Assembly: GCA_051362555.1 (NCBI GenBank)
Contig: CM120645.1
Location: 15,438,001-15,502,000, forward strand
DNA length: 64,000 nucleotides
Source: Lingula anatina
Taxonomy: Eukaryota; Animalia; Brachiopoda
Direction of reading: 5' to 3'
In this document: one piece after another, positions 42,592 to 46,550 of the stretch
Layout of the letters: every line of letters starts with the position of its first letter
How positions within the stretch are numbered: position 1 is the stretch's first letter
Translations under genes and position numbers: made by a program
Notes under the pieces: generated by a model
Database searches by the model: none
Seen by the model: only the letters and a program-made list of their open reading frames with translations
Told to the model about the DNA's origin: nothing

Positions 42592-45500
42592 CTAAGCAAT
42601 TAAATACTGAAACACCGTAATAACCACTGAACATAAAAACACAACAGAGTGTCCAGGTGTGACTAAAAACAAAGACGCAGCGCCACTCGTGGTCCAGTAA
42701 CTCTGCCACGTGGTTTTCAATTCATATATCTCCAAATTGACCACATCAATATCGCTCCCTATGACGTAAGCACCAAAGCCGTCGTCGGTTTTATTCGGAA
42801 AAACTCGATTTGTGATCACCTGACGGCCACCATTCGCAAATACCTCCACAGATGACCAGTCAACGAAAAAGTGAAGGTTCAAGATGCCGCCTTGGAGGTA
42901 GACTTTAGCGACATCTATCGTACCCATCCTGGGGTCTATAAAACCAGAGCGACTCCTATCGACGTAGACGGTTTTGTTCACGTGGTTGTAGCCCACGAGC
43001 GTTTCCTCGGTTGGACCTTGAAGGATGCTAAACCCTACTTTTTCTGTCCCGGCTTTCGGTTTGAATTCTGCTTTCACCTCCAATAACCGTCCATGCACTT
43101 TATCGGTGGTCAATTTTTGCTTCACCTTTAAGAAAAAATGAAAGTGTCATCTTCTAAATGTATACTTTGAAAAGCGTTTCTGAAACTTATGTTTTAAACG
43201 TTTTACATATTTTTCCTCATTATCTTCATATTTGGCTATATACAGTTTTTAGACTACAGAGGCTATTTAAACTGGCCTTCGTGCGTATACATGGCCGACC
43301 ATAAAATGCCAAGATGAAAACAATCACCATACTTTCGTTTTAAATTGCGAAGACTTATACAGCATACGTACGGTGGTAATATCGGTATTTCTATATTTCC
43401 ACTCTACGCCGGTCCTCAATTTTTCCATTTCTTTGATGGGTTTCTGAACGAGCACAATGTCGCCGTCGTTCTCTCTCTCCAACGAAAGAACACGCACCAT
43501 AGTCTGGGCTCCTCGCCACGGGTTTGTTTCTATATCCTGGCAGTATCTCCACGAACTGAATGATAAATACGATATTTGTGATTCAAAAGCTCAGTAAACT
43601 TTCTTTGAGGGCAACATAGCATCGTTAAAAGTTTCATTAAACCGAGGGAAAAAAAGTCCTTCTTTAAACAGAGAATGTTTCGCTCCAAAACATGTTTGTT
43701 TATTATTGTATTACGATTTTCCAAAAATTGTGTGAAAGATTTCCATATAATCAAGTACAAATAAAAGAATAAGGATAACATAGTATGGATCTCCAATAAC
43801 AAATGATCGACCATATAATTTGAAAAAACTTACAATCTATAGCCATAATTTACTAAGCCACAGATACAAATGTTAACGACAAAGGTAATGTGTGCCAACT
43901 TGCCAAGGGAAAAAAGCTACATGACCCCTTGTACTAGTCAGAATTTTATCTATCACATAAGATGCGATGGGAGCTCATTCACGTTATGAGTTTTACTCGT
44001 CTCAACTATCGCAGCCGATGTGCTGTTAATAAGAACAATTATCATATCCAGAGTGCAGACTGTTAACTATGGCTGAATTTAGTGGGAGTTCATCGCCACA
44101 CACCCCATCCCCCCGTCAACACGCAATTCTATATGGGCATGTTAACAAAAATACCAGTCAACGCACCCGTGGGTTTGGTTGCCATCTATGGTTTTGCAGT
44201 TTTAGCAGAAAACTAAGGAGGCTTTTACGGTGCATCTTTTATCATTTTGCCCATATTAGGCTTCTCCGATCTAGACATCTAAGAAATATATCTACATACC
44301 ACATCCAACCCATCCACAAGCGTCTGCCATCGACAAAGTTATTCCACGAATTTGCGGCATAAAAATCTTCTCCAAAGTCCAAATATTTAGCAACAGGTTC
44401 GTCGGGCGTGAAGTGAGTTCCATTGAAGGAACCTAAAAATATATGTTGAAAAGATCTGTAACCGTTTCTCAACAGTTCGCAATGACAACTGTTTACAGCG
44501 AATAAAATTTTGTGACCGAAACAATCTAAAATATCTTGTCCTTCACCTGTAAAAAACACAACCTCGTTACACATCAAATAAAACCTATACATGTATCTTG
44601 GCATTTAGATTAATTTAAGCTAGAATATACGTACCTATGAAATACATTACTCCTCTGCGCGGAACGGAGTCTTTGCCCACTGATATAGGTAACACCCATT
44701 TTTGCACACCCGTCTCTCCTGTGACGTTTAAAGGGAAGAGATCTGGACACTCCCATTCACCTGCAACGATGAATTGTTTAACGCTGCGTTTTATTCACAA
44801 AAATACCTTCATCCAAGAAGAATAAAATGTACGGTAGGCCTATTTGTCGGAGATGTTTTTGATCGCTTAAGGTAGAACTGATACATGTCAGCATTCATAT
44901 GTTCATTAAGAAAAAAAACGGATTATCATTAATGGCATACCTGTCGGTATTGTTCCGTTCGGGCCAAGGTCGCTCATATACGTCCAATCTTTTAGATTTG
45001 GAGAAGAATAAAACTGAAAAATATTGTCTCTGGCTTTTGCAACTAGCATAATCCAGGATTGTGAAGGCTCATACCAAATCACTTTCGGATCTCGGAAGTG
45101 GTGTTCTTCTATCTGTAGAACGGGATTTCCAGCGTACATCGTCCAGCTTCGCCCACCATCCAAACTATAGGACAGGCGCTGGTCCTGTTTCTCATTAGCG
45201 GCCTTTGAGCTAATGAAATGTAATGATTGCCACACATAACAAATGACAACAATGCAATTGTCAATACATTTTTGTTCCCTTGTTTTTAGCCCCTATCCCG
45301 TTTCCATCACCAAAGATCTATCATAACATATTATTTTGGATCCTAGCATCAACTGAAACGTTGACTTAATATTTCCTAGATAATTGAAAGAGTCATAAAT
45401 AGTACTCTAAAGATAACAAGTTTTTTTCTATAGAAAGGCAATTTAGTTCCTGGTATCAACCCTGTTATTTTTTACATTACCTATTATATCCGGTGTATAT

Positions 45501-46550
45501 AGCCACCAAGGGCACGGCACCGTTTCTAGAGAACCCGGATGTATTGTGGACGTCAGCAACGGCACTCCCACTGAAGGCCATGATGTCACCTGTTTCGGGG
45601 ATGGCTATTGGCCAATGTTCCCAATGAACAAGGTCTTCGCTGACAGCATGACCCCAGCTCATGTGACCCCAGCGGACACCTGGATTTATACACGTAATTT
45701 AAATTGGTATTCATTGCCACCCTTTATGCACTCCCCACGTACGCTTGGGCTCTGTTCACAACTCAGTTGATCCGCAAACTAACTGATATGCGGATCAAAT
45801 ATGGCCGACCCACTTGAAAGCTTGCCGCATGATATCCGCGGAGAATCCACTACCATTACGTGGGCGGCTTTCAACTTGTGAACAGAGCCTTGCTCTCGAT
45901 AAAGAAGTGTTCATGATCAACAGTATGTAGCGTTCTTAAACTTCACTGTAACAAGTTCAGTTGGACAGGTCCAAATAATACCACGTTATTTGAATAAAAG
46001 TCAAGTGCACTTTATTTTTTAAAGTGTGCTTGACTTTTCTGATATTCGAAATATGTTGATTCGTTTAATATACCATATGACAGGGACATTGATTTACGTT
46101 GACATTTCAACTTGCCAGCCATCATTTTAACAGAAATAAAAAAAAAGACAGAAGGTTTAAAAAAACAAAGGAAGAGAACCTGCAAATGTTATATCTCCGA
46201 TACTTTTAAAATGGAATGCTTTCTAAAACCATTGTATTGAAAATAAATAACATTTCCGTAATAGTCCAACAGTTCGTCTTTGGGACGCATACATAATTTT
46301 TCATCAATTTTGTCGAAACTAAATCAAACGAAAGCTTAATCATGGAATGCTTACCAAAAGGATTGTATTGATAAAACAGGTGATATTTTCCTCCATAGTA
46401 AAGAAGTCCATTTGGATCGTTCATCCAATTCTTTTCGGGGCTAAAATGGTATTGAAGTCGCCATTTTTCCTGGTATGACGGCTTTGCATATGCTGCAGCA
46501 CTCAGAGTGAAGCAGACGACAGCAAGCAAGAGCCAGTTGCTGTGTGACAT
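42592..46550 (-). CDS. Glycoside hydrolase family 32 beta-fructofuranosidase / levanase / exo-inulinase, 546 aa, 7 coding exons, signal peptide and GPI-like C-terminus
   Basis: Exons 46550-46355, 45679-45481, 45209-44941, 44760-44635, 44432-44300, 43555-43372 and 43125-42592 (1641 nt, in frame, all GT-AG). Catalytic motifs WMNDPNG, FRDP and WECP; also WGHAVS, FSGSA, DFYAA and SVEVF. Confidence 0.95.
45748..45889. mobile_element. Harbinger-like MITE in the first coding intron of the GH32 gene
   Basis: Perfect TIR ggctctgttcacaa / ttgtgaacagagcc, 3-bp TSD TTG, and an interior related to 15015-15253. Confidence 0.8.

What the first reader, a model, noticed from the sequence alone, without database searches (positions are those of the whole stretch)
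42592..46550. Intact, intron-containing microbial-type GH32 fructanase in an animal genome
Seen: a complete 546-aa GH32 ORF across 7 exons with all three catalytic motifs (NDP, RDP, EC), lying among ordinary metazoan genes and host MITEs, which argues against contamination. Known: GH32 is typical of bacteria, fungi and plants; described animal cases (Lepidoptera, some beetles, plant-parasitic nematodes) are attributed to horizontal transfer. The [17 protein letters not shown] and SVEVF motifs resemble Bacillus SacC-type levanases and fungal exo-inulinases. Inference: an old, domesticated acquisition (6 coding-region introns) or a patchily retained ancestral gene, giving this invertebrate its own sucrose/levan/inulin digestion.
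Basis: partly seen in the sequence, partly recalled or inferred. Interest (0 to 1): 0.8.

Follow-up and report, generated by a model that had tools for sequence, protein, structure and literature searches.

The report
Bacterial-type fructanase family in lamp shells
A lamp shell (the brachiopod Lingula) has a real, spliced and transcribed gene for an enzyme predicted to cut fructose polymers and sucrose, likely taken long ago from a bacterium and predicted to be anchored on the cell surface; it adds a new animal phylum to an already known pattern of borrowed sugar enzymes.

Summary
Observation confirmed. Seven GT-AG exons give a 546-aa GH32 with an intact D45/D172/E225 triad. RNA reads splice all six introns and add a 5'-UTR exon. 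The protein is 97.6% identical to Lingula anatina LOC106154361, so the host is a brachiopod. The nearest non-Lingula relatives are bacterial or unnamed metagenomic exo-fructosidases. Thrips and fungal GH32s fall in another clade. The donor is unresolved, and a fungal relay is not formally rejected (AU p 0.23). GH32 transfer to animals is known: 940 species in nine phyla, often with introns (PMC11311677). Brachiopods are not on that list. Best reading: an old bacterial transfer, domesticated into a surface exo-beta-fructosidase, likely digestive. One lead: four rare motifs shared with the annelid Streblospio GH32 hint at an older, shared origin. Verdict: new member of a known kind.

The parts
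48969..49002 (-). 3' end of a non-coding 5'-UTR exon (its 5' end not mapped)
   Evidence: Loose ends of 18 reads at 46564 in X17 match here, next to a GT donor
46563..48968 (-). 5'-UTR intron, 2406 nt, GT..AG
46355..46562 (-). First coding exon: 12 nt of UTR, ATG at 46550, signal peptide, WMNDPNG
46485..46550 (-). Predicted signal peptide (about aa 1-22)
   Evidence: Hydropathy peak 2.65; helix 5-21 in the model of the ortholog; no signal-peptide predictor run
46416..46418 (-). Codon of D45, catalytic Asp of NDPNG (nucleophile by family knowledge)
45707..45873 (.). Very high-copy repeat inside intron 1 (bin limits)
   Evidence: DNA depth about 35,000 against about 90; short partial copies at 15041-15152 and 23818-23869
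45481..45679 (-). Coding exon 2: WG, SWGHA, FSGS
44941..45209 (-). Coding exon 3: GNPV and RDP (D172 at 45089-45091)
44635..44760 (-). Coding exon 4: ECP (E225 at 44750-44752) and the Lingula-specific PRR loop (44654-44662)
44300..44432 (-). Coding exon 5: DFYA, start of the Lingula-specific WMC.W..C motif
43372..43555 (-). Coding exon 6: end of the propeller and linker; C313 at 43540-43542
   Evidence: no Pfam hit alone
42592..43125 (-). Coding exon 7: GH32 C-terminal beta-sandwich with SVEVF (42838-42852), tail and stop
42595..42687 (-). Predicted GPI signal: small residues S516-G517-A518, spacer, hydrophobic run to the C-terminus
   Evidence: Hydropathy up to 3.0; tail comparison; judged by rule of thumb, no predictor run

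Best explanation
This is a spliced, transcribed GH32 gene of the brachiopod Lingula, likely acquired long ago from a bacterium, whose protein is predicted to be secreted, held on the cell surface by a GPI-type anchor, and to clip fructose from levan, inulin-type fructans and sucrose, likely in food. Shown: gene structure, splicing, conservation, all canonical pocket residues, and a Lingula clade lying among bacterial sequences in an unrooted tree. Inferred: direction and source of transfer, the anchor, the substrate and the tissue. Likely course: one transfer, then gain of introns, a C-terminal anchor and seven N-glycosylation sequons, then duplication into 7 RefSeq loci. This copy branches first and keeps the ancestral exo-type pocket; the paralogs changed theirs. 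By family knowledge it would work by a retaining double displacement (D45 nucleophile, D172 stabiliser, E225 acid/base). The likeliest benefit is access to bacterial levan or algal fructans in filtered particles, which host alpha-glucosidases cannot cut (recalled).
For: Gene real. Ten DNA runs from 4 studies hold the stretch or part of it, and X1 depth is about 55-105 across exons, introns and flanks. Selection: 32 of 39 changed codons among the 40 best-supported of 110 read differences are silent, against 21% expected. Bacterial affinity: after the Lingula proteins, none of the remaining 117 of 120 or 116 of 120 best hits carries a eukaryote name or EukProt source. The best scores 539 bits, against 346 for the best fungal and 156 for the Bombyx structure. 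Careful tree of 52 rows: Lingula 100/100; sister is an uninterrupted ORF from a short metagenome contig (P0220, 94/86); thrips group with Streptomyces (98/95) and the fungus with Bacillota (100/97) inside another clade (97/93). One eukaryote clade is rejected (AU p 0.030). Exo type: best PDB matches by sequence and fold are exo-inulinases 8I12 and 1Y4W (model pLDDT 91.6). W42, N44, Q61, W69, F101, S102, R171, C226, W310 and SVEVF are all kept; the counterparts of W69, F101, R171, C226 and W310 are essential or important in KcINU1 (PMC7545266 passages). Anchor: tail hydropathy is 2.4-3.0 in 4 of 5 Lingula rows against at most 1.83 in 283 others.
Against: No activity, tissue or location data exist here. 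Two runs of one study show no reads on the exons, and elsewhere depth is low to moderate. The tree is unrooted, holds no ascomycete exo-inulinase and only three non-Lingula eukaryote rows. Lingula plus fungus is not rejected (p 0.23) and Lingula plus thrips is borderline (p 0.053); the AU base tree was sub-optimal by 1.9 lnL. The donor is unresolved: motifs point to Planctomycetota (WETC in 7 of 433 other rows) and to Balneolaceae (52/77 only). The sister P0220 is unnamed and both branches are long. C308, C313, R256 and R257 replace residues that are conserved near the pocket motifs elsewhere, so specificity may differ. Little is known of marine fructan sources (PMC13000452 introduction). One of 146 non-Lingula representatives also has a hydrophobic tail.
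Confidence: 0.55

Rival explanations
1. One older transfer into a lophotrochozoan ancestor: the Lingula genes and the annelid Streblospio benedicti GH32 are orthologs, and most relatives lost the gene.
For: In the supplement of PMC11311677, Streblospio is the only sequence with EWECP, RLAFSLD and TNPWRG (line wraps can hide matches). It shares four motifs with the window protein. Their counts among 433 other rows are: six-residue loop ending in E before WECP 0, QRL.[FY]SLD 5, TNPWRG 5, and W..WRY 26 (Streblospio shows only the WRY part). Patchy retention in brachiopods, annelids and molluscs is discussed for GH13_1 amylases (PMC7003070 passages).
Against: I picked the motifs after seeing the sequence. 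By eye, Streblospio otherwise resembles the bacterial row P0068 more than Lingula and lacks the PRR loop; QRL.SLD also occurs in Balneolaceae rows and TNPWRG in rows next to P0068, so a related donor would explain part of the match. The apparent intron read-through in its model is not at the Lingula intron 2 position. No other annelid, mollusc or phoronid protein was seen among the top hits. Streblospio could not be placed in a tree.
Confidence: 0.2
2. Same enzyme, other job: it sits on mantle, lophophore or pedicle surfaces and strips bacterial levan slime (biofilm control), or the family has moved to new substrates.
For: A surface anchor suits any epithelium. Expression differs strongly between samples. 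Four of 4 full-length paralogs checked replace W42, N47 and W69; 3 of 4 also replace Q61 and C226. Non-digestive expression of transferred GH32s is reported in the Hessian fly (PMC11311677 discussion).
Against: No tissue labels were available. This copy keeps the canonical pocket. Most animal GH32s are read as nutritional in PMC11311677.
Confidence: 0.2
3. The gene came through a eukaryote (fungus or protist), or is an ancestral eukaryote gene lost in nearly all animals.
For: A clade of Lingula plus Sporobolomyces is not rejected (p 0.23). Two of the three nearest Atlas clusters by features are mostly Ascomycota (0.92, tied with a bacterial one). The best fold match is a fungal exo-inulinase.
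Against: Bacterial-type hits score far higher than fungal ones (539 against 346 bits; the PDB is a small fungal sample). The window protein is 40% identical to the fungal row and 52% to P0063. Starred branches separate them, and one eukaryote clade is rejected. Ancestral retention needs many losses.
Confidence: 0.12
4. Contamination, assembly artefact or pseudogene.
For: No RNA on the exons in 2 of 7 runs.
Against: Spliceosomal introns spliced in 5 of 7 runs, even DNA depth, animal neighbours, an ortholog in the RefSeq assembly, and mostly silent variation.
Confidence: 0.01

Closest known systems
Lingula anatina LOC106154361 (XP_013384146.1), RefSeq 'uncharacterized protein'
   Same: 533 of 546 residues identical; same domains, signal peptide and tail. 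This is the ortholog or an allele.
   Different: 13 substitutions, and a 6-residue longer Thr/Pro/Ser stalk before the tail. Annotated automatically; no paper describing it was found.
Animal GH32A (levanase/inulinase group) of Cheng et al. 2024, PMC11311677; e.g. Frankliniella occidentalis 'levanase' and Mayetiola destructor GH32s
   Same: Bacterial-type GH32 in an animal genome, often with introns, intact triad, and expansion after transfer.
   Different: New phylum and a marine suspension feeder rather than a plant feeder (diet recalled). Separate clade from the two thrips proteins (39-47% identity). Has a C-terminal anchor; the paper never mentions GPI, although its Amyelois Atra_GH32_2 also ends in a hydrophobic run.
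Microbial exo-inulinases / fructan beta-fructosidases (EC 3.2.1.80): InuAMN8 (PDB 8I12), Aspergillus awamori exo-inulinase (1Y4W), KcINU1 (6J0T)
   Same: Five-blade propeller plus beta-sandwich (TM 0.79-0.81 by query), WMNDPNG, Q, WG, FS, RDP, ECP and SVEVF.
   Different: 36-37% identity to 8I12 and 1Y4W. WMCSWRYC replaces WMNNWQYA, PRR replaces the GGS loop, and there is a hydrophobic tail.
Lepidopteran beta-fructofuranosidase BmSUC1 (PDB 7BWB), GH32B sucrase group
   Same: Animal GH32 of bacterial origin.
   Different: Other subgroup (156 bits, 26% identity in the fold match). Lepidopteran genes are intronless (PMC11311677).
MSP130 proteins (PMC11878542, abstract only)
   Same: Bacteria-derived, intron-bearing cell-surface proteins, duplicated in marine bilaterians.
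   Different: Unrelated fold and function; shared intron positions show a pre-bilaterian transfer, which is not shown here.

Membership tests
GH32 | N-terminal five-blade propeller (PF00251) plus C-terminal beta-sandwich (PF08244) | tested here: met
   Pfam hits above cut-off on 6 of 7 exons; model pLDDT 91.6 and Foldseek E 6e-47 to 1Y4W (model is of the 97.6% identical RefSeq ortholog)
GH32 | Catalytic triad in NDPNG, RDP and EC | tested here: met
   D45, D172, E225
GH32 | Hydrolysis of beta-fructosides | not testable with these tools
   Needs an enzyme assay
Exo-inulinase / fructan beta-fructosidase type (GH32A) | WMNDPNG, Q, FS, RDP, ECP, SVEVF plus WG and the W of WQY | tested here: met
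   All present; motif list from PMC7545266 passages
Exo-inulinase / fructan beta-fructosidase type (GH32A) | Exo action on polymeric levan or inulin | not testable with these tools
   C308/S309 and R256/R257 deviate from relatives; assay needed
Endo-inulinase type | NEPNG nucleophile and EVP acid/base motif, as in 3RWK | tested here: not met
   Window has NDPNG and ECP
Sucrose-6-phosphate hydrolase ScrB / BfrA (GH32B-like) | NCBIfam TIGR01322 or NF041092 cut-off | tested here: not met
   236 of 356 and 180 of 900 bits
Horizontally acquired animal gene | Physically in the host genome, with spliced introns and host neighbours | tested here: met
Horizontally acquired animal gene | Nested among non-animal sequences, with eukaryote monophyly rejected | tested here: inconclusive
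   Lies among bacterial rows; all-eukaryote clade p 0.030, but Lingula plus thrips p 0.053 and Lingula plus fungus p 0.23; unrooted and thinly sampled
Bacillus SacC-derived | Sister to Bacillaceae levanases | tested here: inconclusive
   Not sister in the best tree; not rejected (p 0.45)
GPI-anchored protein | Signal peptide, small omega residues, spacer and terminal hydrophobic run with no charged tail | tested here: inconclusive
   Pattern present by hydropathy and inspection; no predictor and no PI-PLC test

The most novel reading that the evidence does not exclude
A single Cambrian or older transfer gave an ancestor of brachiopods and annelids a bacterial fructanase. It was kept in sediment-dwelling particle feeders (Lingula, Streblospio), and in Lingula it became a family of membrane-anchored enzymes with divergent pockets. 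That would break the 'always independent, mostly plant-feeder' picture of animal GH32s and would be genomic evidence that fructans are a long-standing food in marine sediments.
Probability: 0.2. Interest if true: 0.68.

Novelty: new member of a known kind. Interest (0 to 1): 0.42.

Why it matters
It adds Brachiopoda, missing from the 2024 survey, to the animals with transferred GH32 genes. The gene is fully domesticated: seven introns, mostly silent variation, a predicted anchor and a paralog family. Marine fructans are called largely unexplored (PMC13000452 introduction). An animal that has long kept a fructanase is an indirect pointer to them in coastal particles, and the enzyme makes this testable. 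The contrast between this canonical copy and its remodelled paralogs is a ready natural experiment in how a borrowed enzyme changes specificity. It is not a new kind of system.

Tried and rejected
No whole genome is held for this window, so paralogs, their intron positions and synteny could not be checked in this assembly. The run search listed no indexed RNA holder; this is no evidence, and raw reads were laid instead. Earlier-findings look-ups by place, sequence and the first word set gave nothing. The plasmid search was not used for rooting. The first fold, on 16 sequences, was poor (pLDDT 68) and was replaced. FastTree placed Lingula weakly next to L029 and Bacillus in the first tree and warned of long branches; I discounted this. 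A Planctomycete donor, suggested by the WETC motif and six-residue loop, is neither the best tree nor rejected (p 0.53). The Streblospio and other survey sequences were only read in the supplement and could not be put into trees, which leaves the shared-origin question open. PMC10390659 passages gave no usable motif rule. The Lingula genome paper has no occurrence of 'horizontal', 'glycosi' or 'hydrolase' in its main text (PMC4595640); its supplement was not searched and may list the domain. A 25-base search for the UTR exon failed at 3 mismatches because of a 2-base indel; a looser script found it. No complex prediction was run.
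Full report
Observation. Splicing the minus strand at GT..AG sites gives seven coding exons (46550-46355, 45679-45481, 45209-44941, 44760-44635, 44432-44300, 43555-43372, 43125-42592): 1641 nt, 546 aa, no inner stop. Six of the 7 exon frames hit Pfam GH32N or GH32C. The protein also has a hydrophobic N-terminus, seven N-glycosylation sequons and a hydrophobic C-terminus preceded by S516-G517-A518. That is the layout of a GPI-anchored protein; I judged it by inspection, without a predictor.

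Host and reality. Exon 7 is 93% identical to Lingula anatina LOC106154361, and the whole protein matches at 533 of 546 residues, so the host is Lingula. Ten DNA runs from four studies under one species label hold the stretch or part of it. In the one DNA run laid, depth is about 55-105 in 29 of 30 bins; the exception is a repeat in intron 1. I laid 7 of 9 RNA runs. All six introns are spliced in X17, X18 and X19, five in X14, four in X15, and none in X11 or X12. In X15 the mate orientation is opposite to that of the plus-strand Rab neighbour, as expected for a minus-strand RNA. X12 covers the Rab gene but not this one, so expression depends on the sample; tissues are not given. Eighteen reads reveal a further 5'-UTR exon ending at 48969. 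Among the 40 best-supported of 110 read differences, 39 fall in codons and 32 of these are silent, where 21% of sites are silent (rough dN/dS 0.06). Neighbours include ST7, an NDUFA12-family gene, a Rab and a methyltransferase-like gene.

A Lingula family. Searches and look-ups returned seven RefSeq loci: LOC106154361, LOC106159959, LOC106157566, LOC112041625, LOC106157547, LOC106151366 and LOC106170449. They form five clusters at 90% identity; two models are partial, one pair may be haplotypes, and three lie on contigs of one length, probably one cluster. All 8 Lingula rows form one clade (100), and the window's copy branches first. WMC.W occurs in 8 of 8 Lingula rows and 0 of 433 others; PRR..[ML]Y in 7 of 8 and 0 of 433. 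Four of the five paralog models that reach the C-terminus end in a hydrophobic run followed by basic residues; LOC106151366 does not. The window's copy keeps W42, N47, Q61, W69 and C226. All four full-length paralogs checked replace W42, N47 and W69, and three also replace Q61 and C226. In the yeast exo-inulinase KcINU1, the mutants W79L and C239A, in the same WG and ECP motifs, had no detectable activity (PMC7545266 passages). So this copy looks like the working ancestral type, and the others have shifted or lost function.

Origin. Apart from Lingula, none of the best 120 of 7999 scored candidates carries a eukaryote name or an EukProt source, with either the single protein or a Lingula profile; many are unnamed. 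Among the best 150 of 14,688 representatives I looked up 23 of the 147 new ones: one was Lingula, two were thrips, one was a basidiomycete, and the rest were bacterial or unnamed; 124 were not looked up. The careful tree (52 chosen rows of 445, LG+C20, bootstrap not fully settled) gives Lingula 100/100 on a long stem, with sister P0220 (94/86), an unnamed 507-aa ORF on a 1582-nt metagenome contig. The next node, with Balneolaceae, is weak (52/77). The thrips go with Streptomyces (98/95) and the fungus with Bacillota (100/97), inside a separate 97/93 clade. AU tests on 30 rows: all eukaryotes together p 0.030; Lingula plus thrips 0.053; plus fungus 0.23; plus Bacillaceae 0.45; plus the Planctomycete clade 0.53, where the held tree was 1.9 lnL better than the quick free tree. 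Bacterial origin is therefore the best reading, but the donor is open. The tree is unrooted and lacks ascomycete enzymes, so a fungal relay is not excluded; two of the three nearest Atlas clusters by features are ascomycete.

Function. The best solved relatives by sequence and fold are exo-inulinases 8I12 and 1Y4W (model pLDDT 91.6 for the RefSeq ortholog). The ScrB and BfrA cut-offs are not met, and the endo-type motifs of 3RWK are absent. I infer a surface exo-beta-fructosidase acting by retaining double displacement (family knowledge). Lingula is a burrowing suspension feeder, and animals split sucrose with their own alpha-glucosidases (both recalled), so polymeric fructan such as bacterial levan is the likelier gain. 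Marine fructan sources are poorly known (PMC13000452, introduction and passages). A surface-cleaning role fits the anchor equally and remains open.

What is known. Cheng et al. 2024 (PMC11311677; I read main-text parts 1-3, legends and table, supplement part 1 of 24, and term searches of the supplement) report GH32 in 940 animal species of nine phyla, with 0-14 introns, from many independent bacterial transfers. Brachiopoda is not listed, and 'Lingula', 'anatina' and 'brachio' do not occur in the supplement text (one of its 86 pages is a picture and was not readable). A search for papers with both 'Lingula' and 'GH32' returned 0, and six further searches gave no description of these genes; subscription journals are largely outside the library. 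The kind is known; the phylum, the family and the anchor appear undescribed. A hydrophobic tail is not unique among animal GH32s, since one Amyelois sequence has one.

A lead. The survey's only annelid sequence (Streblospio benedicti) is the only one in its supplement with EWECP, RLAFSLD and TNPWRG. It shares with the window protein a six-residue loop ending in E before WECP, found in 0 of 433 other rows. The motifs were chosen after the fact, some also occur in Balneolaceae-like rows, and the sequence could not be placed in a tree. I give shared ancestry 0.2.

Verdict. A real, domesticated, probably bacteria-derived GH32; new member of a known kind; interest 0.42, and 0.68 if the shared ancient origin holds.

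Noticed in passing
window 26987-29357: A 146-bp tandem array (14.9 copies, 97% matches) and the following 200 bp draw very deep RNA coverage, about 1800-fold and one-sided in the stranded runs X12 and X15. Reads run on into varied AT-rich sequence at 29356-29357, probably transcripts of many genomic copies.
   Followed up: partly
window 37781-41847 (+): Convergent neighbour: a spliced gene with a weak Methyltransf_22 hit. It is well expressed in X18 and X19 and has no listed joints in X12 or X15; GH32 depth is also highest in X18 and X19.
   Followed up: partly
window 10231-11886 and 12025-12894 (-): Two long open frames (551 and 289 aa) without a Pfam hit; they look like a hAT-type transposase (label recalled, not tested).
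   Followed up: no
window 25411-25827 and 26227-26568 (+): Near-identical duplicated segments, next to GC-rich 9-bp and AT-rich 49-bp tandem repeats; probably a repeated mobile element.
   Followed up: no
window 29450-34308 (+): An NDUFA12-family exon followed closely by a spliced Rab-family gene.
   Followed up: partly
L. anatina proteins P0061, P0062, P0364, P0380: Paralogs keep the three catalytic acids but replace W42, N47 and W69 (4 of 4) and Q61 and C226 (3 of 4): candidates for changed specificity or binding-only proteins.
   Followed up: partly
PMC11311677 supplement, Sben_GH32_1: The published Streblospio model seems to contain read-through intron sequence and to lack the region matching Lingula exon 5 and the C-terminal domain; it needs re-annotation.
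   Followed up: partly
window 3948-4154 (-): An ST7 exon; the rest of the gene was not mapped.
   Followed up: no
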